DNA from: Candidatus Nitrospira nitrificans
Lineage (GTDB): Bacteria; Nitrospirota; Nitrospiria; Nitrospirales; Nitrospiraceae
Assembly (NCBI RefSeq): GCF_001458775.1
Contig: NZ_CZPZ01000032.1
Coordinates: forward strand, 145,510 to 169,509
Length of the DNA stretch: 24,000 nucleotides
Reading direction: 5' to 3'
The position numbers and the translations under genes are program-made. How positions within the stretch are numbered: position 1 is the stretch's first letter; the number at the start of each line of letters is the position of its first letter. Of this stretch, positions 3,922 through 20,062 are shown piece after piece. The notes beneath the pieces were generated by a model. It was not told the DNA's origin, made no database searches, and was given only the letters and a program-made list of their open reading frames with translations.

Positions 3922-4445
3922 ATCGGTTCCTTCTGCCGCTCTCCATATTTATCGTCGTCGTGGGATTTCTTGGCGTGGGCCTCAAGCTCAACCCGCGGGA
4001 GATTCCGTCTCCCTTGGTCGGGAAGGCCGCGCCGGATTTTTCCCAGCCGCAGCTCTATGATCGCGAGAAAGTGTTTTCTCCTGCAGACCTCAAAGGGAAG
4101 GTGTGGCTGCTCAACTTTTGGGCCTCGTGGTGCAGCGGGTGTAAGACCGAGCATCCGGTGCTGATGGAGCTGGCCAAGTCCGGTGAAGTGCCGATCTATG
4201 GCATGGATTATAAGGATCAGCAGGACGAAGCGATGACCTGGTTGAGGCGATGGGGCAATCCCTATCCGATTGTCGGGGTGGATGATGCCGGACGGGTCGG
4301 CATCAATTACGGAGTTTACGGAGTTCCCGAAACGTACGTCATCGACAAGCAGGGCGTCATCCGTTATAAGCAGATCGGGCCATTGGATTCCGACACGGTC
4401 GCCAAGACGATTCTTCCTCTTGTAAAGCAGCTTGAATCGCAATGA
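3918..4445 (+). CDS. ccmG: Thiol:disulfide oxidoreductase CcmG/DsbE (thioredoxin fold, membrane anchored)
   Basis: 175 aa with an N-terminal anchor, the active-site motif NFWASWCSGCKTEHP (CxxC) and the conserved block GVYGVPETYVID. It has ATGA overlaps with ccmF and ccmH. Confidence 0.92.
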   Translation: MNRFLLPLSIFIVVVGFLGVGLKLNPREIPSPLVGKAAPDFSQPQLYDREKVFSPADLKGKVWLLNFWASWCSGCKTEHPVLMELAKSGEVPIYGMDYKDQQDEAMTWLRRWGNPYPIVGVDDAGRVGINYGVYGVPETYVIDKQGVIRYKQIGPLDSDTVAKTILPLVKQLESQ

Positions 4446-4903
4446 CTTGGGTGATGCTCATCATAGTGTTGTCGTGCGGGACGGTCTGGGCCGGAGAGGC
4501 CAGGCCGTTGGCCGATGATCCGGCCGCCGAGGCGCGGCTCAAGCATCTCGCCGTCGAGCTTCGATGTCTGGTCTGTCAAAATCAAACCTTGGCCGACTCG
4601 AACGCTCCGCTGGCGGAGGACCTGCGTCGAGAAGTTCGAGAGATGATCGCCAAGAATATGAGCGACCAGGAGATCATCGAGTTTCTTGTGGCCCGCTATG
4701 GGGACTTCGTCCTGTATCGACCGCCGCTCAAGGCCACGACCACGCTGCTGTGGGTGGGACCATTTGCTTTAATGGCGATCGGGGCGACGGCGTTGGTCGT
4801 TACGTTGCGGCGTCGAGCGCGTACGATGGTTGAGATTCCGGTGACGGATGAAGAGCATCGACGGGTTGAACAACTCTTGGCAGAAGGAGAGAAGCGATCA
4901 TGA
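4442..4903 (+). CDS. ccmH: Cytochrome c maturation protein CcmH (CycL type)
   Basis: 153 aa with a signal/anchor, the diagnostic motif LRCLVCQNQTLADSNAPLA, then a TM helix. It has a 4-nt overlap with the next gene. Confidence 0.9.
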   Translation: MTWVMLIIVLSCGTVWAGEARPLADDPAAEARLKHLAVELRCLVCQNQTLADSNAPLAEDLRREVREMIAKNMSDQEIIEFLVARYGDFVLYRPPLKATTTLLWVGPFALMAIGATALVVTLRRRARTMVEIPVTDEEHRRVEQLLAEGEKRS

Positions 4904-6189
4904 CCGTGACATTCTGGGCGATCGTGTCCGCCATGACCGTAGCCGTCTTGGGCCTCTTAGTGCGCCCGTTGTTGAAGCGTCCGGCGCAGCTGACAAGTGA
5001 ACAGGAAAAGACGTTGCCGGTGTATCGGCAGCAATTCTCGGAGCTGGAGCAAGATCTCACCAACGGGCTGCTGACGGATGACCAGTATCAGACGGCTCGA
5101 CATGAGCTGGAGCGCCGGGTGTTGGAGGAGACTGGTTCCACCGACACATCGTCGATGATGTCCGGAGGGCTCGTGAATCTTCGGCTTGTCGCACTGTCGC
5201 TGGTCCTGGTCATTCCGGCAGCCAGTGGCGTGCTCTATTGGACATTGGGAAATCCTGCCGCAATGACGCACCCGGCCGTAGCAGCGTCGTCCTCGCAAGG
5301 CGGACCCGGCGATGATCCTCAGATGGCCGACAGCCTCAATCAGCTGATCGAGCAGTTGCGGAAGAAATTAGAGCAGAATCCCAATGATGGGGTCGGATGG
5401 GGACTCTTGGCCCGATCCTATATGGCCATGGAACGGTATGCCGATGCCGTCCCCATTTTCGAGAAGGCCACCAAGCTCGATCCCGATAATGCAAGTCTCC
5501 TCGCCGACTACGCGGATGCACTCGGCGTCCACCAGGGGCGCAAGTTGGAAGGAAGGCCTGAGGCCTTGATCCAAAAAGCTTTGAAGGTCGACCCCCACAA
5601 TGTCAAGGCGTTGATGCTGTCCGGGACCCTTGCCTACAACCGAAAAGATTTTTCGCGCGCCGCCAAAGAATGGGAAGATGCCCACGCGTATCTTCCGCCT
5701 GATGACCAAGAGTCGGCGGATCAACTGAAAGCGAGCATTGCCGAAGCCAAACGACGTCTCGGCGGTGGTCCCAGCATGGGGATGATGGTGGCCAATCCAC
5801 CGATGGAACAGGCAAAGCCCGCCAAGCCGTCGGCCCAATCCGGGCAGCCACGTGCAATTACGGGTAAGGTGGTATTAGGGCCGAACATGGCAGGCAAAGC
5901 GCTTCCAGATACGTTGTTCGTATTTGCAAAGGATGTGGCCGGGCCGCCGATGCCCGTGTCGATCGTCCGAGCATCGAGAAAAGATTTGCCCTTCACCTTC
6001 CGGCTGGATGATTCAACGAGCCCTATGCCGTCGAGGAAATTGTCGGATATCGATACGGTTGTCATCGTCGCGCGCCTGTCGAAATCCGGAAAAGCCATGG
6101 CTGAAAGTGGTGATCTGGAGGGGATGAGCCAACCGATTAAGCCGGGCGCGGAAAACATCACCGTTGTCATCGATCGGGAGAGACCGTAG
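4900..6189 (+). CDS. ccmI: Cytochrome c maturation protein CcmI/CycH (TM + TPR + C-terminal domain)
   Basis: 429 aa. It has two N-terminal TM segments separated by a charged loop and TPR-like repeats (GWGLLARSYMAMERYADAVPIFEKATKLDPDNASLLADYADAL...). A C-terminal domain resembles the proteobacterial CcmI tail (FVFAKDVAGPPMPVSIVR...LPFTFRLDDS). It is the last gene of the coupled ccm string. Confidence 0.85.
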   Translation: MTVTFWAIVSAMTVAVLGLLVRPLLKRPAQLTSEQEKTLPVYRQQFSELEQDLTNGLLTDDQYQTARHELERRVLEETGSTDTSSMMSGGLVNLRLVALSLVLVIPAASGVLYWTLGNPAAMTHPAVAASSSQGGPGDDPQMADSLNQLIEQLRKKLEQNPNDGVGWGLLARSYMAMERYADAVPIFEKATKLDPDNASLLADYADALGVHQGRKLEGRPEALIQKALKVDPHNVKALMLSGTLAYNRKDFSRAAKEWEDAHAYLPPDDQESADQLKASIAEAKRRLGGGPSMGMMVANPPMEQAKPAKPSAQSGQPRAITGKVVLGPNMAGKALPDTLFVFAKDVAGPPMPVSIVRASRKDLPFTFRLDDSTSPMPSRKLSDIDTVVIVARLSKSGKAMAESGDLEGMSQPIKPGAENITVVIDRERP

Positions 6190-6257: not shown

Positions 6258-6286
6258 TTGACAGTCTAGCAGGGCTCAGTTATATT
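6258..6286 (+). promoter_or_regulatory. Candidate sigma70-type promoter of the hao operon
   Basis: TTGACA (6258-6263), an exactly 17-nt spacer, then TATATT (6281-6286). It sits in the AT-rich 192-nt gap between ccmI and hao and predicts a leader of about 120 nt. Confidence 0.55.
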
Positions 6287-6411
6287 TCGCCGCCATCTTT
6301 ATTATGAAGAACTTGTGCAAAACAACCAGCATATAAACAAGCTAGTGTGTCATTAAATATTCTTGTGAAGGACAGTGTGCAGTGTCCATCAACGGAAGGA
6401 GTCGAACTGTG

Positions 6412-8112
6412 ATGGTAAAGAACATGGTGAAGTATGCGCTGGTAGTCTGCGGCGTCTTACTGGCTGCGCAGGCTCAGGCGGATTTCCCCACCGTTCCGAA
6501 GGAAACCTACGAGGCCTTGAAGATTGATCGCTCAGCCTCGCCGAAGGAACTGTATGAAGCGTTGGTCAAGCGGTATATGGATCCGGCGCAGCAGGGCGTG
6601 GGAAAAGGGAAATACGGCGACTATTGGCAGCCGGTCTCCTTCAGTAAGTATTTCGATCCCCATACCTTCTATAAGCCACCCCAGGCGGTGAAAGAAGTCG
6701 CCAGTCGTGAGCAGTGCGTGAAGTGCCACACGGATGAATCACCCGGATGGGTGGCGGCCTGGAAGAAGAGCACCCATGCGAATCTGGACAAGATCCGTAA
6801 GCTGACCCCGAAAGATGAGACCTTCTATAAGAAGGCGAAGCTGGAAGCGGTTGAAGCCAACCTCCGCTCGATCGGGAAGCTGGGCAAGGGGGAGAACCTG
6901 AAGGAAGTCGGCTGTATTGATTGTCACTTCGACATCAATACCAAGAACAAGGCCGATCACCGGAAGGATATCAAGCTGGCCACCGCCGATACCTGCGGGA
7001 CCTGCCACCTGCAAGAGTTTGCCGAGCGCGAATCCGAGCGGGATACGATTACGTGGCCGAAGGATCAGTGGCCCAAGGGACGTCCGTCCCACGCGTTGGA
7101 CTATAGGGCCAATGTGGAAGTGGAAGTCTATGCCGGGATGCCGCAGCGAGAAATCGCCGATGGCTGCACGGGTTGCCACGTCAATCAAAATAAGTGCGAT
7201 ACCTGCCATGCGCGGCATGAATTCTCGGTGGCGGAATCACGCAAGCCGGAAGTCTGTGCGCAGTGCCATAGCGGGGCCGACAACAACAACTGGGAAGCCT
7301 ATTCCCTCTCCAAGCATGGGTTGAAGTATCAGCGCGATAAAGATCACTGGAACTTCAATATCCCCATCAAGGAAGCCATCGCGAAGGGCGCCGAAACGGC
7401 CCCAACGTGTCAGTACTGCCACATGGAATATCAGGGCAAGATTGCCCACAACATCGTGCGGAAGGTCCGTTGGGCGAACTATCCGTTCGTGCCGGGCATT
7501 CGGGAGAACATCAAGACCGAATGGGCCGACAAGCGGAACGATGCCTGGGTGAAAACCTGTACCCAGTGTCACTCCGAGACCTATGCCCGCGCGTGGTTGG
7601 AGTTCATGGATAACGGAACCTTCTCAGGTATCGATAAGTACGACGAAGCCCATCATGTCGTCGAGGAGCAGTATAAGTCCGGGCTGTTGACCGGTCAGAA
7701 GACGAACCGTCCGGCACCACCGGCGCCGGAGACGGATGGCTTTGAAAAGTTCTTCCAGATCTATTGGTCGAAGGGAAACAATCCAGCGGCCAATGAATTG
7801 AAACTGTTCGAAATGGCGGAAGACCACTTGGTGCAATTACACGTCAGCTTGGCGCACCAGTATTGGGGCTATACCTATACGGTGGGTTGGGCGGCGATGA
7901 ATCGGGCCTATGTGGAAATCATGGACGATGATACGCGCCTTAAGGAAAAGCTGGATCTTCAAGCGCGGGTGGCCAAGCTCGAAGGCCAGATGAAGCATAG
8001 TCTGCTGGATCTCGATACGGAGACCGGCAAGATCTCGCTGGGCGGGATCGGCGGCGGCATGATGCTCGCCGGGACCCTTGCCCTCGCAGGGTGGCGGCGT
8101 AACAAGAAGTAG
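6412..8112 (+). CDS. haoA: Octaheme hydroxylamine oxidoreductase (HAO)
   Basis: It has eight CxxCH motifs (CVKCH, CIDCH, CGTCH, CTGCH, CDTCH, CAQCH, CQYCH, CTQCH) and a signal peptide ([13 protein letters not shown]). Synteny with haoB-cycA-cycB supports the call. The ORF track starts at GTG 6382, but GGAAGGAG (6394-6401) favours GTG 6409 or ATG 6412. The C-terminus is hydrophobic. Confidence 0.95.
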
Positions 8113-8114
8113 CA

Positions 8115-9143
8115 GTGAGCGCGACGCCGTCCCTGAGCGAATCGGTATCACGTCCGTCAGGGACTAAGATCCTCCCGTCACTCGGGTTCCTCCTGGTGAC
8201 GGGAGGTCTGTTTCTGAGCGGATGGTTTGCCTACCTTTGGTTTAAACCTGCCCCTGCTCCCTACAACTATCAGCTGGTTGACGAGGGCAATGTCACGAAG
8301 TTTGACAGTCTACCAGTCCAAGCTTGGCCTGATTTGACCATCGCTAAATACGAAGTCCATGTTCCATCCGTAGACAAACCGATTGCTATCGCGTATCGGG
8401 CTAGTAAAGGGAACGGGAGATCCGTTCTGCTACACTGGGAAAATTTGGTGTCTGAGCCTGTCGGCTCGATGGGCAGCGATTTATCTGAACTTGCCACGAT
8501 TGCGACCGATATCACGAAACATGTTCCAAAGGGAGCTGTCATCTTGGCCTGGTGGGATACCTCTCAACAGATTGGTCTTCTGTCCGAGCGGGACACGTTG
8601 TTTACGTCCCATCTTGGGCAACCCCGTATTGCGCCATCGTACTGGAAGGATCGTGCTGATGTCATTGCGGAATATGAACGTCAATTTTGGGGCGCATCAG
8701 GGTCGTCTGAAGAGGAACGAAAATTCCAACAATTTGTGGATGCCCTGTCCTCTGAAACCAATACAGGGCCGGCCCTGCTTCGGGAATTAGTTGGTGCTCG
8801 CGAGGCGTATATAGTCGTCCATCCCTCGGACCTTTATAAGTTGGGACTCATGCGGCCTGATCGCGTGGATATTGCCTTTAAGGACTTTCCCTTGACCGGA
8901 AACGTTCATGGGCTTGCGAACCAAGTTAAAGCATGGATGAAAGAGTACGGATACGATACCTATACCCTCCAGTCGTTGTCTGAAAAACTCGTACGAGCTT
9001 ATTTTTTGAACGAAGGGAAAAAGGGAAAGATTTTGCTGTCCCAAATGCTTCCACTCATGAATTCGACTCCGGTTGATTTGCAAGCGATGCAGCTTGTCCA
9101 TAAGCATGGTGGCTATTGGGTGTATAAGATTCCGGGCAATTGA
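8115..9143 (+). CDS. haoB: HaoB (orf2), a membrane-anchored protein of unknown function always found next to hao
   Basis: 342 aa with a GTG start 2 nt after the hao stop and one N-terminal TM helix (ILPSLGFLLVTGGLFLSGWFAYLWF). It has no heme motif. The call rests mainly on its conserved position between hao and cycA. Confidence 0.7.
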   Translation: MSATPSLSESVSRPSGTKILPSLGFLLVTGGLFLSGWFAYLWFKPAPAPYNYQLVDEGNVTKFDSLPVQAWPDLTIAKYEVHVPSVDKPIAIAYRASKGNGRSVLLHWENLVSEPVGSMGSDLSELATIATDITKHVPKGAVILAWWDTSQQIGLLSERDTLFTSHLGQPRIAPSYWKDRADVIAEYERQFWGASGSSEEERKFQQFVDALSSETNTGPALLRELVGAREAYIVVHPSDLYKLGLMRPDRVDIAFKDFPLTGNVHGLANQVKAWMKEYGYDTYTLQSLSEKLVRAYFLNEGKKGKILLSQMLPLMNSTPVDLQAMQLVHKHGGYWVYKIPGN

Positions 9144-9312
9144 AAGTTACGCTGCTGCACAGTCCTTGAAGAACGGGGTAGCAGTCCAGAATCGCCCATG
9201 GTAAACTGAAGCGCCTGGAAGCAGTCAGGGGAAAAGGCTATCAAATTCTCCACTACGGCTTTATGACAAGTCCTTACGTTCTTACTCATATCTCTATCGG
9301 AAAGGAGATGCC

Positions 9313-10032
9313 GTGAATCACCGCATTCTGTATTCATTCGCCGCTGCGGCGGTATTTCTAGCAGTGGCCGGAACGGCCTTTGCTGAAGGGACTTTCGAAG
9401 GCAGGAAGAAATGCTTCAACTGCCATAAAGGTGAAGGGGAATCCTGGGAAAAATCACTCCATGGCAAGGCCATGGAATCCCTCAAACCCAACACGAGGAA
9501 AGAAGCTAAGCTGAAGGCTAAGCTTGATCCAAAGAAAGATTATACAAAGGATAAGGATTGCGTTGGATGCCATGTCGATGGGTTCGGTAAGGAAGGCGGC
9601 TATGTCATCGAAGAACCGGAAAAGTTCTTGACGGGTGTCGGTTGCGAGTCTTGCCATGGAGCCGGTAGTGACTATCGAAAGATCCATAGAAAAGCCGGTG
9701 AAGCGTTTGAAAAGTCTCAGAAGACCATGGAGCGGACCAATCTCGTCGAAGCGGGTCAGGACTTTGAGTTTCAAGAGAAATGCAATGCCTGTCACTTGAA
9801 TTACGAAGGATCACCTTGGAAGGGAGTGAAGAAGCCCTATACGCCGTTCACACCAACCGTCGACAAGAAGTATGCCTTTGATTTTGAAAAGTCGGTAAGA
9901 AATGACAAAGCCATGCATGAGCATTTTAAACTTGCCGGCACCTTCACCGGGCCGCCAATGCCGAAGTTCCATGAGGAATTCCAGAAGGCAGCCAAACCGC
10001 CGGTGAAGGCCGACAAGGCTGGGGACGAATAG
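9313..10032 (+). CDS. cycA: Tetraheme cytochrome c554
   Basis: 239 aa with a signal peptide (AVAGTAFA) and four CxxCH motifs (CFNCH, CVGCH, CESCH, CNACH). AAGGAGA lies upstream of the GTG start, and the gene follows haoB. Confidence 0.85.
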   Translation: MNHRILYSFAAAAVFLAVAGTAFAEGTFEGRKKCFNCHKGEGESWEKSLHGKAMESLKPNTRKEAKLKAKLDPKKDYTKDKDCVGCHVDGFGKEGGYVIEEPEKFLTGVGCESCHGAGSDYRKIHRKAGEAFEKSQKTMERTNLVEAGQDFEFQEKCNACHLNYEGSPWKGVKKPYTPFTPTVDKKYAFDFEKSVRNDKAMHEHFKLAGTFTGPPMPKFHEEFQKAAKPPVKADKAGDE

Positions 10033-10034
10033 CC

Positions 10035-10628
10035 ATGCCAAAGTTGGGGACATTAGCGGCTGGGGCAGTTCTTGGAATAGGGCTCATTACCGTCGTGTTT
10101 GGCGGTGAGGCCGCCATCTCAAGGACTGAGTTCTGCATCAGTTGTCATTCGGAGATCTATCCCTATGAGGAGCTGAAAAAATCTTCACACTGGGGTGCCC
10201 TTGGTATGGACCCTGGCTGTAAAGATTGCCATGTGCCTCAGGGATTATCGAACTTTCACAAAGCGGTCTGGACTCACGTGGTGGATGGTGTGCCGTTCCT
10301 CATAAAGGAGTTCACGACGGACTACTCAACCATTGAAAAGTTCAATGAGCATCGGCCGGAAGCAGCGTTTCGTGCTCGAATGAAGCTCAAGGAATGGGAC
10401 AGTCTCACCTGTAGGGCTTGTCACAAGAATACTAAGCCGCCGGGAGCTTCAGCCAAAGCGGCCCATGCCAAGATGCAAAGCGAAGGGGCGACTTGCATCG
10501 ATTGCCACCAGAACCTTGTGCATAAAAAGGTCCCTGAGCATGACCTCAATGCCAGCCTTGCGCAAGGGAAGGCCGTAATCAAGGAAGTGAAGAAGAAGGC
10601 CGACGACGATGAGGATGAAAAGGACTAG
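10035..10628 (+). CDS. cycB: Membrane-anchored tetraheme quinone-reducing cytochrome cM552 (NapC/NirT family)
   Basis: 197 aa with an N-terminal TM helix immediately followed by CISCH, then CKDCH, CRACH and CIDCH. This spacing is typical of NapC/NirT. The ATG lies 2 nt after the cycA stop. Confidence 0.88.
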   Translation: MPKLGTLAAGAVLGIGLITVVFGGEAAISRTEFCISCHSEIYPYEELKKSSHWGALGMDPGCKDCHVPQGLSNFHKAVWTHVVDGVPFLIKEFTTDYSTIEKFNEHRPEAAFRARMKLKEWDSLTCRACHKNTKPPGASAKAAHAKMQSEGATCIDCHQNLVHKKVPEHDLNASLAQGKAVIKEVKKKADDDEDEKD

Positions 10629-10660
10629 CCGTCGTCAGAAATTCTTCGGATGCTGTTAAC

Positions 10661-10699
10661 AGCAGGGCCGTACTCCACAATGTGAGGTACGGCCCTGCT
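10661..10699. terminator. Strong hairpin between the convergent cycB and MOSC genes (possible bidirectional terminator)
   Basis: A perfect 13-bp inverted repeat, AGCAGGGCCGTAC (10661-10673) and GTACGGCCCTGCT (10687-10699), with a 13-nt loop. There is no clear U-tract on either strand, so function is uncertain. A 14-nt palindrome TGCTGTTAACAGCA abuts it. Confidence 0.55.
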
Positions 10700-10741
10700 C
10701 AACTCGCCTAAGTGTTTTATCTTCGGCTCAGTTCTAATCTA

Positions 10742-11488
10742 TTAGCTCTTACTCGTGTGAGGTCCCGCCAGTCTTGAGGAGGTATTCTCCGCCTCTCCTG
10801 TAGCAGCCCGTCGTTTGAGTTTTGTCCGCCATCTCAACGAAAGATCCGTGCAATCTGCCAATTGGCTGGCTGCCTCTCTATCGTGTGGGCGATGGTGCAT
10901 CACGGTATTTGCGAGAGACACCGTCCAGTCGGGGCAGTGGCGTTCAACTAATACCAGGTCGTTCCCGACCTGCACATGGCCTTCACGAAGGACTCTGAAA
11001 TACCAGCCGGTACGTCCGGTATTTTGGACACGAACCGCAAGATCCTTGACTCGCCATCGACGAGCCAGCTTCCAGCAGGGCTGTCGCGGTTGCGAGATCT
11101 GGACAAGGGCGTCACCAATCATAAATACATCTCCGATGCACACATCGCTCTCCAGCAACCCTGTAGTCGTAAAATTTTCCCCGAATGCTCCTGGGTGGAG
11201 ATCCGGTACCGGTAATGTCTCCAACCAATAGGGGTAGTGCTCTCCCGGGTAGACATTGACGGCCTTTTCAGGTCCCCCGTGGTTGTCTAGATCTGCTTGG
11301 CCATCACCAGCCAAGTTGACTGTGCCAAGCCACAGTGATTCGGACGTTGGCTGTTTAAAGAAACCGGTCGTCCAAACCTCATCAAAGGGGTCTGGTGATC
11401 CGCTGTTCCCCAGGGTCCGTGGTTGCCCGACTTGCAAAGAGATGATTGTTGCAGCCACCGGTTTTCTCAAGAAAGGTCCTTTACTCAT
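10742..11488 (-). CDS. yiiM: MOSC-domain protein, YiiM-like (molybdenum-cofactor-dependent reductase of N-hydroxylated compounds)
   Basis: It is collinear with E. coli YiiM as I recall it: GGPEKAVNVYPGEHYPYW vs GGPDRALCHYPREHYLYW; GAFGENFTTTGL vs PAFGENLSTDGL; ALVQISQPRQPCWKL vs ALIQVSQPRSPCYKL (the conserved Cys); QNTGRTGWYFRVL vs QNTGKVGWLYSVI. The ORF track starts at GTG 11533. I prefer ATG 11488 (MSKGPF...) by length comparison. Confidence 0.85.
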   Translation of the reverse strand: MSKGPFLRKPVAATIISLQVGQPRTLGNSGSPDPFDEVWTTGFFKQPTSESLWLGTVNLAGDGQADLDNHGGPEKAVNVYPGEHYPYWLETLPVPDLHPGAFGENFTTTGLLESDVCIGDVFMIGDALVQISQPRQPCWKLARRWRVKDLAVRVQNTGRTGWYFRVLREGHVQVGNDLVLVERHCPDWTVSLANTVMHHRPHDREAASQLADCTDLSLRWRTKLKRRAATGEAENTSSRLAGPHTSKS

Positions 11489-11659
11489 ACTCAGCGATCC
11501 ACGTTGACCATTTGGGTGATTCACACGAAACACTGTGTGCCTGTGATGGCCGAAACAGATGCCGATGATTCTTGCTGATCAGTCGCGATGCGAGCCAAGT
11601 TGAGGGGTGTATGTACCCATAGGAAATGGGCAGTATTAAGGAGTGCATGCGCATCAGTG

Positions 11660-12493
11660 TTAGGAGATCCCCGTTCGATTCAAGACCGCGCTCGACCGGT
11701 ACCAGGCGTGGAGACGTTTGACCCCACGCAACGTCGGCCCTGCTCCTCCAATGGCAACCGCATCGACCAGGCAATACCAAGCGCTGGCGCCGCTGGGCGG
11801 ATTACCTTGTGGCCATCCCAGGAGTGGGTCTATAGCTGCCCAGTGCCACGCGCCGACCGTTGTACCGATCAATTCCAGCCACGTCGTAATGAAAAATGCA
11901 GCGAGGTAGACCATCGGTGAGCGGCCTGTCACCAGCCAGATTAAGAATATGCAAAACAGCAACGCACCGACCGCATCTCCACGCTCAGCATACCCGGTGA
12001 CGCCCCAGATGGCCCAAGTGCCCCAGACGCCTATGACAAATAGCGCAATTAGTCTGGGATGGCGTACAAAGAGGCCAGATCGTGCCAAGGCGACTGCAGT
12101 CAAGTAGACCATGCCATGGCCTGGTGGGACGTAAGCCGGTACATTCTCGAATCGATAGGTGTAGCCTCCCATATAGATGGAGGCGAAATGCTCTCCCACT
12201 GTTGCAAAGATGACCGCAATCAGGACCTGCACCCGTGTTTCCCGATTTTCGCCGAGCAATAAGGTCCCGAGAAAGACCCAGGCCAAGGCTCCTAACGCCT
12301 GTTGTCGCTCGATACTGGCACTGATTTCAAACAAAGAACTCACGGCAACGCTCAGGAATGTAAACGCAGCAATAGCATAATCGCGCATTCGATGCGTGCT
12401 GGCTGCATTGCTGTTCGGAAAATGTCGGAGGGCAGTCTGGGTGACTCTAACGAGCCAGGGCCAGCGAGCAGAAGTGCTTGTCGGAGCTTCCAT
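11660..12493 (-). CDS. Hypothetical polytopic membrane protein (about 7-8 predicted TM helices), family not recognised
   Basis: A 277-aa ORF with repeated hydrophobic spans of about 20 aa (AIAAFTFLSVAVSSLF, ALAWVFLGTLLL, VQVLIAVIFATV, MVYLTAVALA, LIALFVIGVWGTWAIWGV, ALLFCIFLIWLV, VYLAAFFITTWLELIG). There is no convincing SD, so the start is uncertain (ATG 12493 or 12388). Confidence 0.6.
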   Translation of the reverse strand: MEAPTSTSARWPWLVRVTQTALRHFPNSNAASTHRMRDYAIAAFTFLSVAVSSLFEISASIERQQALGALAWVFLGTLLLGENRETRVQVLIAVIFATVGEHFASIYMGGYTYRFENVPAYVPPGHGMVYLTAVALARSGLFVRHPRLIALFVIGVWGTWAIWGVTGYAERGDAVGALLFCIFLIWLVTGRSPMVYLAAFFITTWLELIGTTVGAWHWAAIDPLLGWPQGNPPSGASAWYCLVDAVAIGGAGPTLRGVKRLHAWYRSSAVLNRTGIS

Positions 12494-12801
12494 ACATCAA
12501 ACGTAATTGAGAGCAAAATAGTTTCGGCAGGCGTTCAGTATTACACCCACGATCGTTCAATCTGCAGTACCACACACCGTTGGAATCATACAGGACCCCT
12601 GCGGAACGGGCAAGCTCAAACCAGGTCATGAATCGCTTCTTGCCGGTTTCCTGACATCTGTTATCGCGCCGTTAACTCATACATCGTGGGATGTGCGGAT
12701 GTAAGACACTCTCGTTGGATAAAGAAGTGAACATGTCAACGAGAAAATGAGGGATATAAAATATAAATGGGGGAGAATTGAGCGAGAAGGGGAACAAAGA
12801 A

Positions 12802-12849
12802 AAACGCCGGTTCGTCATTCCATCATACGATGGGGACGAACCGGCGTTT
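12802..12849 (-). terminator. Rho-independent terminator of amoCAB
   Basis: 18 nt after the amoB stop there is a 15-bp perfect stem, GACGAACCGGCGTTT (12835-12849) and AAACGCCGGTTCGTC (12802-12816). On the - strand transcript it is followed directly by UUUUUCUUUGUU. Confidence 0.8.
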
Positions 12850-12867
12850 CATTAAACCAGGACTACC

Positions 12868-14127
12868 TTATGCTCCCAGCCGTGTGAAGACCGGAAGGAC
12901 TGGAGCCCAGACCGGATTGATGAGTCGCTCACCAGAATCCGTCCAAGACATCAGTAATCCTGCGAAGCGCTGATCCGGATCGTGGAGAATGTCCACCAAC
13001 CGTTGCACTTCCCAGAGGACATCCTTCGACTCGATATGGATATCAACTGTTTGGCCAGGCTGGATCGCAGCCTCGTTATCCATCGTCAGACCAGCCGCTG
13101 CGACCAGTTCGGCCGGATAGTTTGGATCAACCTTGGCTGCGCCAAACTTGTTGGTAAACCTGATGCCTGCTGTGGTGAACTCGCCGATGGTTACCGGTTG
13201 TGTGCCGTTATTGGTCGCATGAATGGTCATGCGCAATGCGCGGCCCGGAACATCGTACTCTGCATGGGTCACCTCAACCACCATTGGATTAGGCTTGATT
13301 GGCATAGGCTTGATCTTCGCCTCACCAGCCTGAAGAGGGACGCTGATCGGGTGCCGTGCTTCTGCAGCCATGTACCCGACGACCACAACAACCAATGTGA
13401 GGACCAACACCGCAACTCCAACTTTGCGATCGATGGGGTCAAGCAGGATCTCGTCCCCATAGGCCGCAAGGACTCGAGCGCGAATGAGGTACATGGGTCT
13501 GATGGCAAAGAACCCGACCCAGAAGATGCCAAGGGCGATCCACCAGATATGCCACATAATTCCGGTGGCGCTCCCCATTGTCTCCGAGTCGAATGTTTCA
13601 CCAGTCAGTGTTTTGATCGGATTGGTGAAATCCGCATAGTTACCCGTGATGTCCATCCAACCGCCTGGTCCCGCGATTGGACCGGCTTCCTTGACGGCAA
13701 ACATGGGGTGGATGTGATGGTGGCCAGGGAGTCTGGCCTTCAGTGTGACCACATACTCATAGTCACGACCGATTTCCATTGGCCCAGAGACGAACATCGG
13801 CGTTCCATTTACCTTCGAGCTCAGACGCACGAAGACGGAACTAGGGGATCCGACATTGATGAAGGTACGGGTGGGTTTCACCACCGCACGAGGCCAATCC
13901 TCGGACAAATGGAACTTGCCCTTCAGCTCTGTCACATCGTTAATTTTGGTCGACTTTCCAACCCATTCGGTATCATACCAATTCACAGTACGCATCCGCA
14001 GGAACGGCTCCTGCGATCGCTCTCCGTGAGCGAATGCGGGGGTAATATCGAGAGCCGGCGTGACCGCCAGTGTCGCCACCCCGCAGAGTCGAATCATCCA
14101 CAGTTTGAAGACGTGTTTGGCATTCAT
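12868..14127 (-). CDS. amoB: Ammonia monooxygenase subunit B
   Basis: 419 aa. The signal peptide ends AFA|[14 protein letters not shown], giving the N-terminal His copper ligand. It has the HxH copper motif ([11 protein letters not shown]), two mid-protein TM helices and two cupredoxin-like halves. The start overlaps the amoA stop as ATGA. Confidence 0.95.
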
Positions 14128-14972
14128 GCTTTTCCCCCAGAAAGTTTAGCTTTGTCGCCTTGTGGCCCCAAGGTGGCATATGCAAATACATCGTACACCT
14201 TCGTGGTCCGCTGTCTGTCGTCAGTGATGTAAAAGTACGACGTGCAGAAGAATTTTCCGAACTGCCACCACACGATGTACGTCAAGGAAGACGCGAACGC
14301 AGAGAAGAACGCGGAGATCATGGTGCTGTGACCACCGAACGTGCGCAGCGACCCTACTTCGATCATCCGGATGTACTCAGGAGTTCCGGTACGAACATAC
14401 ATGAAGCCCATGTAGTCCGCCCATGAGAGCAATGCGCCATCGACAACGAGAGGCGTATGGCTATAGGCAAATATAGGCCAGTTGCTCGGATAGAACAGTG
14501 CCGCGAACATCCACGCTCCGATCACCGCCGTCAGCGTCCAGTTCCTTGTCAACAACAGCACGATGTCGAGAACCAAGGCACCGGGGATCGCTGTAGCCGG
14601 CATGACGAAGTTGGGTGGATAATTGGACCACCACCACCACGAAGTGTAGACGGCAATCCATTTGCCGGCGCCAAGCGCCAGAATGCAGAGCGTTGCGCCG
14701 AACGGCTGTCGGTAGTTCACCCAGTTATAGTACTGGAGAGCGGCGCAGAAAGTGATCAAGGTAACCGGCGTCACGATCGGCCACCACTGACGGTCTTTCC
14801 AATCGAGCCAGAAATCCCAGTCTCCACACAGCAGCGCTGTGTGCATATGGAAGGTTCCGACGATAGTAACGAACAAAATGGGAATGAAATAGATATAGTC
14901 AATCTTCCTAGACATGGCCACCCCTTCAGGGGGTAACTTCGCGGCCTTGATAATCTCATCGGTTCTAAACAT
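14124..14972 (-). CDS. amoA: Ammonia monooxygenase subunit A
   Basis: It is collinear over its full length with Nitrosomonas AmoA blocks ([66 protein letters not shown]). The ORF track starts at ATG 14981, but GGAGG (complement of 14982-14986) abuts that codon and sits 9 nt from ATG 14972 (MFRTDE...), which I prefer. Confidence 0.96.
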
Positions 14973-15003
14973 AACTGACATCCTCCGTCATTTCGGTCGA
15001 CCG

Positions 15004-15045
15004 TGGCCAACCAGACGCTCCGCTCCATGGAGCGCCTGGCCAACC
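15004..15045 (-). repeat. Structured element in the amoC-amoA spacer: a 9-nt direct repeat flanking a 14-nt palindrome
   Basis: TGGCCAACC occurs at 15004-15012 and again at 15037-15045. Between them lies the perfect palindrome CGCTCCATGGAGCG (15021-15034), preceded by a tandem CGCTC. Confidence 0.35.
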
Positions 15046-15095
15046 GCAGATGCCGACCTATGGTTCATATGAATCTGTGCTCAGCCCATTACCCC

Positions 15096-15914
15096 TTAGT
15101 ATCCGGCTTTGGCGTTGGGGTTCACCTGGCTGGGGAACGGATCCAGAATCGTCTTCGGCGCGTTGTTCCAGATCACGTCCGCCAGATTCGACATCCGGCT
15201 CACGATCTGCGCCGCGACCCCGCCCGCCGCCCCGAACAACCCGCACCAGCCCAACGTCACGAAGCCCCAGTGCAACGGCGCCGCAAACAGCTCATCCACA
15301 AACCAGAACGCATGGCCCCACTCGTTCAACCCCACGTTCGGTAGAATGAACATCGGCCCCACCACCGCCGCCACCAACGGGAACGACGTCGCTTGGCTGT
15401 ACAGCGGCAACCGCGTCTGCGCATACAGATAGCTCGACACACCGCACGTGATGTACAACGGGAACGTCCCGTAGAACGCCACAATGTGGCTCGCCGTGAA
15501 GCTCGTGTCCCGGATGATCACTTGGTGCCACGCCGCATCCTGCTCCAACGTGTAGCTGCCCGCGTAGTACACGCCCCAGATGTAGCACACCAACCACCCC
15601 ATCCAGTAAAAGTACCGCTTCAGTTCGAGCTTCGGGTCCAGGTTCGTCAGGTTCCGGTCCCGCGTCACCCAGATCCAGCCGATCGACACGGCAAAGAACG
15701 CGGCGTTCGCCAGGATGTTGAACCGCCACAACCCCATCCACACCGAGTCGAACTCCGGCGTCATGGAGTCCAGCCCGTGCGAGTACCCAAACGTCCGCTG
15801 GTACAGCACCCAAAACACGCCGATCCCCAGCATCGCCAACCAGCCGATCTTCACCGGCTTCGAATCGTACCACTGCGAGATGTCATACCCTCGCCCCGAA
15901 CTGTCTGCAGCCAT
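15096..15914 (-). CDS. amoC: Ammonia monooxygenase subunit C
   Basis: 272 aa, collinear with Nitrosomonas AmoC ([80 protein letters not shown]). AAGGAGG lies 8 nt upstream of the ATG. Confidence 0.96.
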
Positions 15915-16035: not shown

Positions 16036-16065
16036 AGTATCCGACAAAAATCTGAGATGAGTCAA
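16036..16065 (-). promoter_or_regulatory. Weak candidate promoter for amoCAB
   Basis: On the - strand: TTGACT (complement of 16060-16065), 18 nt, then GATACT (complement of 16036-16041). It lies in the 358-nt AT-rich gap upstream of amoC and would give a leader of about 115 nt. The -10 matches only partially. Confidence 0.3.
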
Positions 16066-16272: not shown

Positions 16273-18288
16273 TCAGTGGACGTGGTCACCGGGAGGAGGC
16301 AAGATCTCTCGCTCTTGATTGAGCTGGGAGATCTGTTGTGTCAAAAGGCTTATGTCTGTCCAACCCGGTCCGTCTCCTTGCGGAATCCATCGAGCTCGTA
16401 GGTATCCGAATCGGTCGAAGAGAAATTCCATGTGCTTCGGGCGAGTTCCCTCGCCGAACAAGTCAGGAATGGAAAGAGTTCGGCGGAACAGCGCATAGCT
16501 CCGGGAGATTTCTCGTCCACCTTGGGTAACGACGGGGAACGGCATTCCCTGTGAGATTATCGAGGTCAGCTCATCCGGAGAAAGGTCGGTCATGGGAACT
16601 GCCAGGATAGCCGCGCCAGTTGCGGTAATCGTGGTCGAAGCCGTACGGAGTTGATCAAGCCGAGCACGCGACTCCGGCCAAGAGAACAGCACAAGCAGCA
16701 GATCTTGTTTTCCGCGGAAGTCTTTCAATGTGCCGCTTGAGCCATCGTGCGCCGTATACGAAAAGTTTGGGGTAGCCATGAACGGTTGCTCAGGCAGAAT
16801 GCGAGGCGTGATAATCCTCGATTGATATCCTCGGGAGTTGGCGTGGAGAAAGTTAAGGAGATCCCAACGCTCTTCTTCTGAGAATTTCTCACCGAAGGCC
16901 GGCATAACCCCGTTGAATCGTCCGTAGGTCAGCCAATGGAAGAAGTCACCGGCCGTGTGCATGGCGGTATGCGGCTCCGTCAGAAGGTCGACTGGTTGTT
17001 TCGGCAATGTCTTGGCCAATATCCCATTCCCTTTAGCCTGTGGGCCATGGCACGGAATGCAATTCGCCGTGAACAGCTCGACGCCATTGGCAATTGAGAT
17101 GGCATCGAATGGAACCGGGGTCTTCCGGTAGGTTTCCGGGTAGGATTGTACGGCGATGGGATAGAGTGTCGCGCTGAGGCCCATGATCCCCAGCAGGGTT
17201 GGAACAGCGATTCGCCATGAGGTCGCCCACTGTTTCTTGCGACCGAGCATGATTGTCGTTCCGCCTATGATCAGGAGCACAAGGCCGGTTAGCACAATGG
17301 CTCTTACCAGCCAGTCGTCCCATGTGGCGTCGATGGAGAAGCGGAACGGGTAGGGCCAGTTATCGATGACGTCATGTTTAGCCGGGACCGCGTTGGCCAG
17401 CAAGGTGGCGACGATGACCAGGAGGATGGCGAGGCCGAACTCGACTGGTATCCATGTCCGAAGTTTTCGACCACCTACGGCTGCTTGCTCGGAGCTTTGC
17501 CGAAGCGCTGGTATCCACTGAGACTTCGCTCGAGAGGCGATAGAAAGAATCACGGCCAGTAACGTGAGCTTCGTGATGAGCAGCCAACCATAGGCAGTCG
17601 CGACTAGTCCGGCGTAATTGGTCTCAAACATGCGATTGGCCACGACAACGCCTGATATGACGATCACGATCATTGTGGCTGGAGCCAATCCCGAGAAACG
17701 AGCCAGCACGTCACCGATACGTGATCTTTCGTCCGTTGAGTCGGTCGTGGTGGAGGCGACAAGGATCACGCCCGGGAGGCCGCCGAACCAGACGCTGGCT
17801 GCGATGAGATGCAGGGCATAGATCGCGGTGGCCAACAGCGCTTGTTCTTCGGCGGCCGAATGGCTAGCGAGAGAACCGAACGTCAGTGTCAGCGCTGCCG
17901 CTGCCGCCCCTACGATGTAGCGCCATTGCGCTGCGGGAGAAAGCTGAATGGACAGAACGACCCCAAGGACAGCAAGGGCACCGGCAGCGCGCAGAGCCCA
18001 GATAAACCCGATACGAGTCTTTTGTAAAAAGTCCAACCAGGCTTGCGGACTCCAGGCATTTTCAGGAGATCCGGTAGCCTGCGCGGTCGTCGTGGCCAAG
18101 AGACCGACTAGGCCGATCAGCAGGAGGGTGGCCAACCAAGGGAACGTCCTTTTCAGACGAGCCGGCCAGGAATGCCCTGATTCGAGGCTCTTCTGTTCGG
18201 CGATTGCTAAGAAGACGCAACCTCCGATCAGCATCATGTTGGACGCTAATTGCAGACAGCGAAACAGCGCACCGGCGGCCTCGATCAT
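16273..18288 (-). CDS. copD: CopD-family copper-resistance/transport membrane protein fused to a class I cytochrome c domain and a Cys-less thioredoxin/redoxin-like domain
   Basis: 671 aa. The N-terminal ~390 aa are polytopic and CopD-like. Next comes ELFTANCIPCHGPQAKGNG...NGVMPAF (a CxxCH plus a distal Met, with CIPCH encoded at 17047-17061). An AhpC/redoxin-like segment follows (LKDFRGKQDLLLVLFSWPES...FLFDRFGYLRARW) with no active-site Cys. The start overlaps the copC stop as ATGA. Confidence 0.85.
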   Translation of the reverse strand: MIEAAGALFRCLQLASNMMLIGGCVFLAIAEQKSLESGHSWPARLKRTFPWLATLLLIGLVGLLATTTAQATGSPENAWSPQAWLDFLQKTRIGFIWALRAAGALAVLGVVLSIQLSPAAQWRYIVGAAAAALTLTFGSLASHSAAEEQALLATAIYALHLIAASVWFGGLPGVILVASTTTDSTDERSRIGDVLARFSGLAPATMIVIVISGVVVANRMFETNYAGLVATAYGWLLITKLTLLAVILSIASRAKSQWIPALRQSSEQAAVGGRKLRTWIPVEFGLAILLVIVATLLANAVPAKHDVIDNWPYPFRFSIDATWDDWLVRAIVLTGLVLLIIGGTTIMLGRKKQWATSWRIAVPTLLGIMGLSATLYPIAVQSYPETYRKTPVPFDAISIANGVELFTANCIPCHGPQAKGNGILAKTLPKQPVDLLTEPHTAMHTAGDFFHWLTYGRFNGVMPAFGEKFSEEERWDLLNFLHANSRGYQSRIITPRILPEQPFMATPNFSYTAHDGSSGTLKDFRGKQDLLLVLFSWPESRARLDQLRTASTTITATGAAILAVPMTDLSPDELTSIISQGMPFPVVTQGGREISRSYALFRRTLSIPDLFGEGTRPKHMEFLFDRFGYLRARWIPQGDGPGWTDISLLTQQISQLNQEREILPPPGDHVH

Positions 18289-18686: not shown

Positions 18687-18765
18687 GAGTTCCCCCTGCG
18701 CCCGATTGCTCACTCCGGTGATGCATCGGGCGGTCTAGTCTGGCGCTCCCTTGAGAAGTCGCTTC

Positions 18766-19996: not shown

Positions 19997-20062
19997 GAAT
20001 GTGTCCTCTTTTTTGCGATGGTGAAGAGAATGCTCAGATACGGACATGCGTCGTCTGGTTGC

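What the first reader, a model, noticed from the sequence alone, without database searches (positions are those of the whole stretch)
6258..15914. Whole NH3 -> NH2OH -> NO2- enzyme set (amoCAB plus hao-haoB-cycAB) in one locus with a non-canonical layout: the signature of a comammox-type, probably laterally acquired ammonia-oxidation island
Seen in the sequence: amoC-amoA-amoB (15914-12868, - strand) ends about 2.2 kb from the 3' end of hao-haoB-cycA-cycB (6412-10628, + strand), in convergent orientation. Only two genes lie between them. Heme-maturation, copper-handling and iron-storage genes flank both operons. Established knowledge: in beta- and gammaproteobacterial ammonia oxidisers the amo and hao operons are unlinked and often multi-copy. 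In those organisms the accessory genes orf4/orf5 (amoE/amoD) and copCD follow amoB, whereas here they precede amoC. AmoA and AmoC align end to end with the Nitrosomonas europaea proteins as I remember them ([16 protein letters not shown], [30 protein letters not shown]). Substitutions are scattered throughout, which suggests a separate lineage rather than a Nitrosomonas or Nitrosospira copy. Inference: this matches the single AMO/HAO island reported for complete ammonia oxidisers (comammox Nitrospira; Daims et al. 2015, van Kessel et al. 2015). If the same genome encodes nitrite oxidoreductase, one organism performs complete nitrification. The host is not identifiable from this window.
Basis: partly seen in the sequence, partly recalled or inferred. 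Interest (0 to 1): 0.92.

Follow-up and report, generated by a model that had tools for sequence, protein, structure and literature searches.

The report
Known comammox Nitrospira amo–hao gene cluster

Summary
amoC-amoA-amoB (15914-12868, -) converges on haoA-haoB-cycA-cycB (6412-10628, +). The gap is 2,240 bp and holds two genes. ccmB-I lies to the left. amoE-amoD-amoD2-copC-copD lies upstream of amoC, and two bacterioferritin genes lie to the right.

The comammox interpretation is also correct. CcmF, HaoA, AmoB, AmoA and AmoC are exact full-length matches to GenBank proteins CUS38616, CUS38620, CUS38626, CUS38627 and CUS38628 of Candidatus Nitrospira nitrificans (van Kessel et al. 2015). AmoA groups with comammox clade A and is 62-64% identical to Nitrosomonadaceae AmoA.

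Palomo et al. and the Koch et al. review describe each layout feature as a known comammox trait.

Three caveats apply:
- amo-hao linkage is not diagnostic on its own. One betaproteobacterial MAG has the same convergent arrangement, and N. inopinata lacks the linkage.
- The window holds no tRNA, integrase or transposase gene. GC and GC3 of its genes resemble the few flanking genes recovered, so nothing here points to recent acquisition.
- If HAO yields NO, as Caranto and Lancaster report, the enzyme set for nitrite formation is incomplete.

Verdict: real, correctly interpreted, already known.

The parts
1..517 (+). ccmB, 3' part, cut by the left end of the window
   Evidence: PF03379 CcmB, profile positions 51-215. 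The full 227-aa gene preceded by ccmA is seen in the 99.6% identical contig L097.
533..1282 (+). ccmC
   Evidence: PF01578, E 7e-37. Called as CcmC in L095 and L097.
1282..1467 (+). ccmD (61 aa)
   Evidence: PF04995 gene called at L095 1058-1243. L095 position 1 aligns to window position 225.
1451..1933 (+). ccmE, haem chaperone
   Evidence: PF03100, E 1e-37.
1930..3921 (+). ccmF, haem lyase subunit
   Evidence: PF16327 and PF01578. Exact match to CUS38616 of Ca. N. nitrificans.
3918..4445 (+). ccmG, thioredoxin-like protein
   Evidence: Redoxin and AhpC-TSA domains.
4442..4903 (+). ccmH
   Evidence: PF03918, E 1.5e-51.
4900..6189 (+). ccmI (cycH)
   Evidence: PF23914 and PF23892.
6258..6286 (+). 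Promoter-like site upstream of haoA (TTGACA-17-TATATT, 11 of 12 matches)
   Evidence: This is a consensus match only. The total number of sites in the scanned region is not above the shuffled expectation.
6412..8112 (+). haoA, octahaem hydroxylamine oxidoreductase (566 aa)
   Evidence: PF13447, E 4e-137. Eight CxxCH motifs. E 1e-256 to solved HAO 6m0p, with the cross-linking Tyr (Y491 of 6m0p) conserved. Exact match to CUS38620.
8115..9143 (+). haoB
   Evidence: TIGR04392 haoB_nitrify, 349 bits against a cut-off of 200. One N-terminal hydrophobic segment.
9313..10032 (+). cycA, tetrahaem cytochrome c554
   Evidence: PF13435. NF043010, 427 bits against a cut-off of 400. Four CxxCH motifs.
10035..10628 (+). 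cycB, tetrahaem membrane cytochrome cM552 (NapC/NirT family)
   Evidence: PF03264, E 6e-43. Four CxxCH motifs and an N-terminal hydrophobic segment.
10661..10699 (.). 19-nt inverted repeat between the two convergent stop codons; inferred bidirectional terminator hairpin
   Evidence: Arms 89% complementary, 1 nt apart. The terminator function is inferred.
10742..11533 (-). MOSC/YiiM-like gene; start uncertain (gene callers give 238-248 aa)
   Evidence: PF03473 and PF03475. Below the cut-off for the 6-hydroxyaminopurine reductase equivalog, 172 against 294. Gene calls in L081, L082 and L095.
11660..12493 (-). Uncharacterised polytopic membrane protein (242 aa from M36 at 12388, or 277 aa)
   Evidence: No Pfam or NCBIfam match. 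At least four strongly hydrophobic segments and nine helices in the AlphaFold model. Lies beside amoB in clade A loci. Family of 853 clusters at 50% identity.
12868..14127 (-). amoB
   Evidence: PF04744. AmoB_BACT 548 bits against a cut-off of 336. Aligns over residues 3-417 to solved AMO chain 9leg_B. The mature chains 9pxf_A and 9cl6_A start at query His34, and the HxH motif is conserved. Exact match to CUS38626.
14124..14972 (-). amoA (282 aa as annotated; the ORF extends to 14981); overlaps the amoB start by 4 bp
   Evidence: PF02461. AmoA_BACT 357 bits against a cut-off of 290. E 4.5e-118 to solved AMO chain 9pxf_D. Exact match to CUS38627.
15096..15914 (-). amoC
   Evidence: PF04896. AmoC_BACT 341 bits against a cut-off of 319. 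E 6.5e-118 to 9leg_C, with the motifs DTSFTxSH and NEWGHAFWF...PLHWGF conserved. GAAGGAGG ribosome-binding site upstream. Exact match to CUS38628.
16036..16065 (-). Promoter-like site in the 359-bp gap between copD and amoC
   Evidence: TTGACT-18-GATACT, 9 of 12 matches. Sequence shown. Consensus match only.
16273..18288 (-). copD fused to a cytochrome c domain and a thioredoxin-like (AhpC/TSA) domain
   Evidence: PF05425, PF13442 and PF00578. One CxxCH motif. Multiple hydrophobic segments.
18285..18713 (-). copC
   Evidence: PF04234, E 3e-22. NF033814 match at 75 bits, below its 95-bit cut-off.
18766..19350 (-). amoD paralogue (194 aa; amoD2 in published nomenclature)
   Evidence: 50% identical to the next gene upstream. 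Hydrophobic segments at the N terminus and near the C terminus. 55% identical to the gene after amoB in beta-AOB locus L068.
19412..20047 (-). amoD paralogue (211-aa ORF; the likely start is M18)
   Evidence: 60-63% identical to the gene downstream of amoB in beta-AOB loci.
20063..20659 (-). amoE-like gene (198 aa)
   Evidence: 26% identical to the 194-aa AmoD paralogue, with the same hydrophobic-segment pattern. 48-56% identical to the first gene after amoB in beta-AOB loci. Promoter-like site at 20720-20691.
20920..21396 (+). Bacterioferritin 1
   Evidence: TIGR00754, 182 bits against a cut-off of 126.
21405..21875 (+). Bacterioferritin 2
   Evidence: TIGR00754, 144 bits against a cut-off of 126.
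22578..24000 (-). Di-haem MauG/MbnH-like protein gene, cut by the right end of the window (610-629 aa in L091)
   Evidence: The reading frame stays open to the window end, with CRACH and CVACH motifs. Weak C-terminal matches to TIGR04039 and TIGR03791. Full-length gene in L091. Found beside the cluster in clade A loci.

Best explanation
The window is the ammonia-oxidation module of the complete nitrifier Candidatus Nitrospira nitrificans, a member of comammox clade A. The steps below are inferred from homology to characterised Nitrosomonas enzymes. AMO (AmoCAB, a copper membrane monooxygenase) hydroxylates NH3 to NH2OH using O2 and two electrons. Periplasmic octahaem HAO, with its haem P460 and tyrosine cross-link, oxidises NH2OH to NO, or in the older model to nitrite. 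Electrons pass to cytochrome c554 (CycA), then to the membrane-bound cytochrome cM552 (CycB), and then to the quinone pool. Two electrons return to AMO and the rest feed respiration. The neighbouring genes supply the cofactors. System I ccmA-I attaches the 16 c-type haems of HaoA, CycA and CycB. CopCD and the PmoD-like AmoE/AmoD proteins handle periplasmic copper. Two bacterioferritins store iron. Nitrite is then oxidised to nitrate by NXR, which is encoded elsewhere in the genome. Compared with beta-AOB, the amoE-amoD-copC-copD block sits upstream of amoCAB rather than downstream, and amoD is duplicated. The hao and ccm clusters are joined to the same region.
For: Exact full-length identity of CcmF, HaoA, AmoB, AmoA and AmoC to Ca. 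N. nitrificans GenBank proteins on a 230-kb contig. The spacing of the accession numbers fits the gene order in the window. AmoA is 77-99% identical to about 65 Nitrospira MAG loci and 62-64% identical to Nitrosomonadaceae. In a neighbour-joining tree the window falls inside the Nitrospira group that contains CG24_B and Ga0074138. CG24_B is assigned to clade A by amoA phylogeny. The same gene order occurs in L043, L044, L060 and L063. All family assignments exceed curated cut-offs. HaoA has eight haem motifs and the conserved cross-link Tyr. AmoA, AmoB and AmoC align nearly end to end with solved AMO structures, and the copper-ligand motifs are conserved. Published descriptions match this layout: AMO, HAO and ccm in one region, the order amoBAC-copDC, amoEDD2, and two bfr genes in clade A.
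Against: Nothing contradicts the identification. Function is inferred from homology and no expression or activity data were examined here. nxr is not in the window. The promoter and terminator sites are consensus matches, and their total number is not above chance. The end product of HAO, NO or nitrite, is debated in the literature.
Confidence: 0.97

Rival explanations
1. The locus is from a betaproteobacterial ammonia oxidiser (Nitrosospira or Nitrosomonas type) that happens to have linked amo and hao clusters.
For: Such linkage exists. In L077, a betaproteobacterial MAG, amoCAB converges on cycB-cycA-haoB-haoA with a 2.3-kb gap. All proteins of the module have their closest relatives outside Nitrospira in beta-AOB.
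Against: Identity to beta-AOB is 56-72% across the AMO and HAO proteins, against 77-99% to Nitrospira loci. The amoED-copCD block lies upstream of amoC, not downstream of amoB. Five proteins match Ca. N. nitrificans exactly.
Confidence: 0.01
2. The CuMMO operon encodes a methane or short-chain hydrocarbon monooxygenase (pmo, pxm or similar) rather than an ammonia monooxygenase.
For: AMO and pMMO are homologous, and the generic TIGR03078-03080 models cover both.
Against: The AMO-specific NCBIfam equivalogs are passed. The best solved relatives are AMO (E about 1e-118), ahead of pMMO (E about 1e-77). Gammaproteobacterial sequences are 40-52% identical and fall outside the Nitrospira/beta-AOB part of the tree. 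A complete hao-cycAB module is adjacent.
Confidence: 0.01
3. The block is a recently acquired, still mobile genomic island, bounded by a tRNA, integrase or transposase gene and compositionally foreign.
For: Published reconciliation analyses infer transfer of amo and hao from beta-AOB to comammox ancestors and between clades. A deviating tetranucleotide pattern was reported for the amoCAB-containing region of N. inopinata. Similarity is discordant between the two halves. AmoA is closest to CG24_B and RSF12 (98%), but CycA is only 77-81% identical to theirs. CycA is 90% and HaoA 95% identical to L043 and L044, whose AmoA is 86-87% identical.
Against: The 24 kb holds no tRNA, no Rfam match, no long repeats and no integrase or transposase domain. 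The 3.7 kb and 4.7 kb of flanks seen in near-identical contigs hold none either. GC of the module genes is 0.49-0.62 and GC3 is 0.53-0.89, overlapping the flanking genes at 0.51-0.62 and 0.62-0.78. The region is syntenic across many Nitrospira species, which fits an old, vertically maintained module.
Confidence: 0.08

Closest known systems
Ammonia-oxidation gene cluster of comammox Nitrospira clade A (Ca. N. nitrificans; van Kessel et al. 2015; drawn as the clade A exemplar in Palomo et al., Fig. 5)
   Same: It is the same locus. Five proteins are exact matches. The gene order is ccm, haoAB-cycAB, MOSC gene, hypothetical gene, amoBAC, copDC, amoD2-amoD-amoE, then two bfr genes. This matches the published description.
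   Different: No difference was detected.
Betaproteobacterial AOB amoCAB-amoE-amoD-copC-copD operon and separate haoAB-cycAB clusters (Nitrosomonas europaea, Nitrosospira multiformis)
   Same: The protein families, domain content, haem counts, Tyr cross-link and copper-ligand motifs are the same. Identity is 56-72%. The internal order amoE-amoD-copC-copD is preserved.
   Different: In the window the amoED-copCD block lies upstream of amoCAB. amoD is duplicated. The hao, ccm and bfr genes are co-localised. amoCAB-hao is a single-copy cluster here, whereas beta-AOB carry 2-3 copies. At least one beta-AOB MAG (L077) also links amo and hao.
A more distant comammox-type locus (L099; AmoA 69% identical, tentatively clade B)
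   Same: AmoD-like genes, then copCD, then amoCAB on one strand, with the ccm system I genes adjacent.
   Different: In L099 CopC and CopD are fused, and ccm lies on the amoD side. There are no bfr genes, no MOSC gene and no 242-aa membrane-protein gene, and no hao within 2.7 kb of amoB. A carbonic anhydrase gene follows amoB. The clade B assignment of L099 is my inference from its AmoA identity and tree position.
Particulate methane monooxygenase operon pmoCAB with pmoD of methanotrophs
   Same: Homologous three-subunit copper enzyme with a PmoD/AmoD-type accessory protein.
   Different: pMMO chains match with much weaker E-values than AMO chains (about 1e-77 against 1e-118 for AmoA), and gammaproteobacterial AmoA/PmoA-family hits are 40-52% identical. 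The substrate differs, and there is no cycAB module.

Membership tests
Comammox Nitrospira clade A ammonia-oxidation cluster | AmoA falls in comammox clade A, not in beta- or gamma-AOB or pmoA | tested here: met
   98-99% identical to CG24_B, RSF1, RSF12, Ga0074138 and YR-XLJ-1, and 62-64% to Nitrosomonadaceae. Placement in the neighbour-joining tree. CG24_B is assigned to clade A.
Comammox Nitrospira clade A ammonia-oxidation cluster | The host genome is a Nitrospira | tested here: met
   Five proteins match Ca. Nitrospira nitrificans records exactly. DNA is about 87% identical over 11-15 kb to Nitrospira MAG contigs of up to 880 kb.
Comammox Nitrospira clade A ammonia-oxidation cluster | amoCAB, haoAB-cycAB and the system I ccm genes lie in one region | tested here: met
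   All lie within window positions 1-15914. Listed as a comammox trait.
Comammox Nitrospira clade A ammonia-oxidation cluster | amoE-amoD-amoD2 (duplicated amoD) and copCD lie upstream of amoC | tested here: met
   Three paralogues, two of them 50% identical to each other. Homology to the beta-AOB genes downstream of amoB.
Comammox Nitrospira clade A ammonia-oxidation cluster | Two bacterioferritin genes lie next to amoEDD2 (a clade A trait according to Palomo et al.) | tested here: met
   TIGR00754 passed twice. Trait stated.
Comammox Nitrospira clade A ammonia-oxidation cluster | nxrAB in the same genome, needed for complete nitrification | not testable with these tools
   nxr is not in the window and the rest of the genome could not be fetched. 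The literature reports NXR in the core genome of all analysed Nitrospira.
Bacterial ammonia monooxygenase (CuMMO) | Three subunits C, A and B pass the AMO-specific curated models | tested here: met
   AmoA_BACT 357 against 290, AmoB_BACT 548 against 336, AmoC_BACT 341 against 319.
Bacterial ammonia monooxygenase (CuMMO) | Copper-ligand residues are conserved: in AmoB the N-terminal His of the mature chain plus HxH, and in AmoC the Asp/His/His and Asn/His/His sites | tested here: met
   The mature chains 9pxf_A and 9cl6_A begin at query His34 (HGERSQ), and HHIHP aligns with HHMHA of 9leg_B. DTSFTASH and NEWGHAFWF...PLHWGF are conserved. The assignment of these residues as ligands comes from my knowledge of pMMO structures, not from a tool.
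Bacterial ammonia monooxygenase (CuMMO) | Ammonia rather than methane is the physiological substrate | not testable with these tools
   Inferred from the closest solved relatives being AMO and from the adjacent hao module.
Oxidative hydroxylamine oxidoreductase module (HaoAB-CycAB) | Eight CxxCH haem motifs and the C-terminal cross-linking tyrosine of haem P460 | tested here: met
   Eight motifs. The Tyr aligns with Y491 of 6m0p.
Oxidative hydroxylamine oxidoreductase module (HaoAB-CycAB) | HaoB, tetrahaem c554 and tetrahaem cM552 are encoded directly downstream | tested here: met
   TIGR04392 349 against 200. NF043010 427 against 400 and a NapC/NirT match. Four CxxCH motifs in each cytochrome.
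Beta-AOB-type amo operon (amoCAB-amoE-amoD-copC-copD) | The accessory genes follow amoB, and AmoA lies within Nitrosomonadaceae | tested here: not met
   The accessory genes precede amoC. AmoA is 62-64% identical to Nitrosomonadaceae and falls outside that clade.

The most novel reading that the evidence does not exclude
Two unannotated genes lie between amoB and cycB: a YiiM-like MOSC reductase gene and a polytopic membrane-protein gene of 242 aa whose product is 69-73% identical to Methylococcales proteins. The most novel reading is that they are functional accessories of the clade A ammonia-oxidation module rather than passengers. The MOSC enzyme might reduce N-hydroxylated bases or other N-hydroxy compounds formed when hydroxylamine leaks. 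The membrane protein might act with AMO. In the rearranged loci L010, L012 and L017 the MOSC gene stays next to cycB and the membrane-protein gene stays next to amoB.
Probability: 0.1. Interest if true: 0.45.

Novelty: already known. Interest (0 to 1): 0.1.

Why it matters
Comammox overturned the century-old view that nitrification needs two organisms, and this cluster is its genetic basis. This locus was published in 2015 and has been compared in detail since, so the finding adds nothing new. Its value is as a positive control. A reader working from raw sequence alone recovered the right genes, the right coordinates and the right organism type.

Tried and rejected
- Rfam at gathering thresholds, the tRNA scan and the repeat search found nothing pointing to mobile elements or RNA elements. 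The only notable result was a hairpin at 10661-10699.
- The promoter and terminator scan did not exceed the shuffled expectation. Only the positions of three sites are suggestive.
- GC and GC3 per gene showed no separation between the module and the few flanking genes recovered from near-identical contigs. This background sample is too small to settle the question.
- For the 242-aa membrane protein, Pfam and NCBIfam gave no match even at E = 5. The AlphaFold2 model reached only pLDDT 68. Foldseek against the PDB gave no match with E <= 0.001. The afdb50 library was unavailable. Its Methylobacter homologues are not next to pmo or hao.
- The literature search for MOSC was swamped by matches to 'moscoviensis'.
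- My guessed PMC id for Daims et al. 2015 was not held.
- The search for ERR1149362, ERR1149363 and PRJEB10139 did not identify the sequencing runs. It did yield the published 86.3% ANI between CG24_B and Ca. N. nitrificans, which agrees with the roughly 87% DNA identity I measured.
- I considered and rejected a beta-AOB origin, a pmo/pxm identity and a recent mobile island. The reasons are given under the rival explanations.

Full report
**Observation**

On the + strand lie ccmB (cut by the window start), ccmC, ccmD, ccmE, ccmF, ccmG, ccmH and ccmI, together spanning 1-6189. They are followed by haoA (6412-8112), haoB (8115-9143), cycA (9313-10032) and cycB (10035-10628).

On the - strand, in order of transcription, lie:
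- an amoE-like gene (20659-20063);
- two amoD paralogues (20047-19412 and 19350-18766);
- copC (18713-18285);
- a copD gene fused to a cytochrome c domain and a thioredoxin-like domain (18288-16273);
- amoC (15914-15096), amoA (14981/14972-14124) and amoB (14127-12868);
- a polytopic membrane-protein gene with no family match (12493/12388-11660);
- a MOSC/YiiM-like gene (11533-10742).

Two bacterioferritin genes follow on the + strand (20920-21875). A di-haem MauG/MbnH-like gene on the - strand runs off the right end of the window.

The stops of amoB and cycB are 2,240 bp apart, with exactly those two genes between them. A 19-nt inverted repeat lies between the convergent stops at 10661-10699.

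**Protein-level checks**

HaoA has eight CxxCH motifs. It aligns over nearly its whole length with solved HAO (6m0p, E 1e-256). The tyrosine that cross-links haem P460 (Y491 in 6m0p numbering) is conserved. CycA and CycB each carry four CxxCH motifs.

AmoA, AmoB and AmoC align nearly end to end with the recently solved bacterial AMO structures 9pxf, 9cl6 and 9leg. E-values range from 1e-112 to 1e-173, well ahead of pMMO. The mature chains 9pxf_A and 9cl6_A begin at His34 of the window's AmoB. The HxH motif of AmoB and the AmoC motifs DTSFTxSH and NEWGHAFWF...PLHWGF are conserved. That these residues are copper ligands comes from my knowledge of pMMO structures, not from a tool.

The three small proteins upstream of copC each have a hydrophobic N terminus and a hydrophobic segment near the C terminus. 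Two of them are 50% identical to each other and the third is 26% identical to the 194-aa paralogue. They match the genes that follow amoB in betaproteobacterial loci at 48-63% identity. I therefore assign them as AmoE, AmoD and a second AmoD.

**Whose locus it is**

A scan of one genome per species found about 65 loci in Nitrospira, Nitrospiraceae or Nitrospirota genomes with AmoA 77-99% identical to the window. The closest are CG24_B, RSF1, RSF12, Ga0074138 and YR-XLJ-1 at 98-99%. Nitrosomonadaceae loci reach only 62-64%.

In a neighbour-joining tree the window sits inside the Nitrospira group that contains CG24_B and Ga0074138. Palomo et al. assign CG24_B to clade A by amoA phylogeny. A group of unnamed AmoA sequences 67-71% identical to the window is sister to this group. 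I take it to be clade B, which is my inference. Beta-AOB branch outside both groups.

DNA identity to those species representatives is only about 87%. That matches the published 86.3% ANI between CG24_B and Ca. N. nitrificans.

The decisive result is the exact-sequence look-up. CcmF, HaoA, AmoB, AmoA and AmoC of the window are identical over their full lengths to CUS38616, CUS38620, CUS38626, CUS38627 and CUS38628. These are proteins of Candidatus Nitrospira nitrificans, encoded on a 230,428-bp contig. The spacing of the accession numbers fits the gene order of the window, including two genes between cycB and amoB.

Contigs 98-100% identical to the window also occur in several other metagenome assemblies.

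**What is already published**

Palomo et al. (bioRxiv 10.1101/138586) make these statements:
- Comammox genomes carry two amoD copies (amoEDD2).
- The gene order is amoBAC-copDC.
- Clade A genomes carry two duplicated bfr genes next to amoEDD2.
- Comammox genomes use cytochrome c biogenesis system I, whereas canonical Nitrospira use system II.

Their Figure 5 uses Ca. N. nitrificans as the clade A exemplar. The review by Koch et al. (PMC6311188) repeats these points. It adds that Ca. N. nitrificans has a duplicated haoA elsewhere in the genome and that NXR belongs to the core genome of all analysed Nitrospira. The novelty class is 'already known'.

**Mechanism**

The mechanism is inferred from homology to the characterised Nitrosomonas system. 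AMO converts NH3 to NH2OH. HAO oxidises NH2OH and passes electrons through cytochrome c554 to cM552 and then to quinone. The ccm system I genes, CopCD with AmoD/E, and bacterioferritin supply haem attachment, copper and iron respectively. NXR, encoded elsewhere, completes oxidation to nitrate.

Compared with beta-AOB, the amoE-amoD-copC-copD block keeps its internal order but sits 5' of amoCAB rather than 3'.

1. Linkage alone is not diagnostic of comammox. In L077, a Nitrosospira-like betaproteobacterial MAG, amoCAB converges on cycB-cycA-haoB-haoA across 2.3 kb that holds a large ORF I read as a MocR/GntR-type regulator; no family search was run on it. Conversely, N. inopinata has the two clusters apart. 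Several clade A loci are rearranged (L010, L012, L017).

2. [quoted passage not shown] The window gives no independent sign of a recent island. It has no tRNA, integrase, transposase or long repeats. GC and GC3 of its genes overlap those of the few flanking genes I could recover.

One hint of mosaic history exists. The amo genes are closest to CG24_B and RSF12: AmoA is 98% identical, but CycA only 77-81%. The hao and cyc genes are closest to L043 and L044: HaoA is 95% and CycA 90% identical, but AmoA only 86-87%. This fits the hao transfer into the CG24_B lineage that Palomo et al. infer.

3. Under the NH2OH/NO obligate-intermediate model (Caranto and Lancaster 2017, as summarised), HAO yields NO and a third enzyme is needed to form nitrite. 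On that model the title's 'whole NH3 -> NO2- enzyme set' is overstated.

4. By database comparison it can be.

**Side observations**

The 242-aa membrane protein next to amoB belongs to a widespread uncharacterised family of 853 clusters at 50% identity. After the Nitrospira hits, its best named matches are Methylobacter and Methylococcales proteins at 69-73% identity. In those genomes the gene is not near pmo or hao. The structure prediction was mediocre and matched no solved fold.

The MOSC gene is much more divergent between close relatives (62-70%) than its neighbours (about 90%). In the rearranged loci it nevertheless stays beside cycB, while the membrane-protein gene stays beside amoB. 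These points leave open a modest possibility that the two genes are accessories of the clade A module. I rate that at about 0.1.

**Verdict**

The locus is a published textbook case, and interest as a discovery is low.

Noticed in passing
window 11660-12493 (-): An uncharacterised polytopic membrane protein lies next to amoB, with no Pfam or NCBIfam match. After the Nitrospira hits, its best named matches are Methylobacter and Methylococcales proteins at 69-73% identity, which is unusually high across phyla. In those genomes the gene is not near pmo or hao. The family comprises 853 clusters at 50% identity. The AlphaFold model (pLDDT 68) matched no solved fold.
   Followed up: partly
window 10742-11533 (-): A YiiM-like MOSC gene lies convergent to cycB. 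It is only 62-70% identical in close relatives whose neighbouring genes are about 90% identical. It stays adjacent to cycB in the rearranged loci L010, L012 and L017. It might reduce N-hydroxylated compounds formed from hydroxylamine, but that is speculation.
   Followed up: partly
L077 8970-18650: A Nitrosospira-like betaproteobacterial MAG has amoCAB convergent on haoA-haoB-cycA-cycB with a 2.3-kb gap. The gap holds a 528-aa ORF that I read as a MocR/GntR-type regulator; no family search was run on it. amo-hao linkage is therefore not unique to comammox.
   Followed up: partly
window 22578-24000 (-); full gene at L091 1602-3434 (610 aa as called; the ORF extends to 3491, 629 aa): A di-haem protein with CRACH and CVACH motifs shows only weak C-terminal similarity to MbnH and MauG. 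The window end cuts it. It lies beside the cluster in most clade A loci, at 66-89% identity.
   Followed up: partly
window 6412-10628 compared with 12868-15914; loci L002, L003, L043, L044: Similarity is discordant between the two halves of the cluster. The amo genes are closest to CG24_B and RSF12 (AmoA 98%). CycA and HaoA are closest to L043 and L044 (90% and 95%), while CycA of CG24_B is only 77% identical. This fits separate histories for the two halves.
   Followed up: partly
window 15096-15914 (-): amoC has GC3 of 0.89, against 0.53-0.75 for every other gene in the window. This may reflect expression-linked codon bias or a distinct history.
   Followed up: no
window 16273-18288 (-); L099 6327-8630: CopD is fused to a cytochrome c domain and an AhpC/TSA thioredoxin-like domain (671 aa). 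In the more distant locus L099, CopC, CopD and cytochrome c are fused into a single 767-aa protein.
   Followed up: no
L050 12111-13884; L003 5800-9885: In YR-XLJ-1 (L050) only a 59%-identical fragment of haoA lies between amoB and ccmI, and amoC was not detected. In RSF12 (L003) the membrane-protein and MOSC genes sit between copD and a partial amoC match, and a second MOSC-like copy lies beside cycB. I did not determine whether these are real rearrangements or assembly artefacts.
   Followed up: no
window 10661-10699: A 19-nt inverted repeat (89% complementary, 1-nt loop) lies between the convergent stops of cycB and the MOSC gene. It is probably a shared terminator.
   Followed up: no
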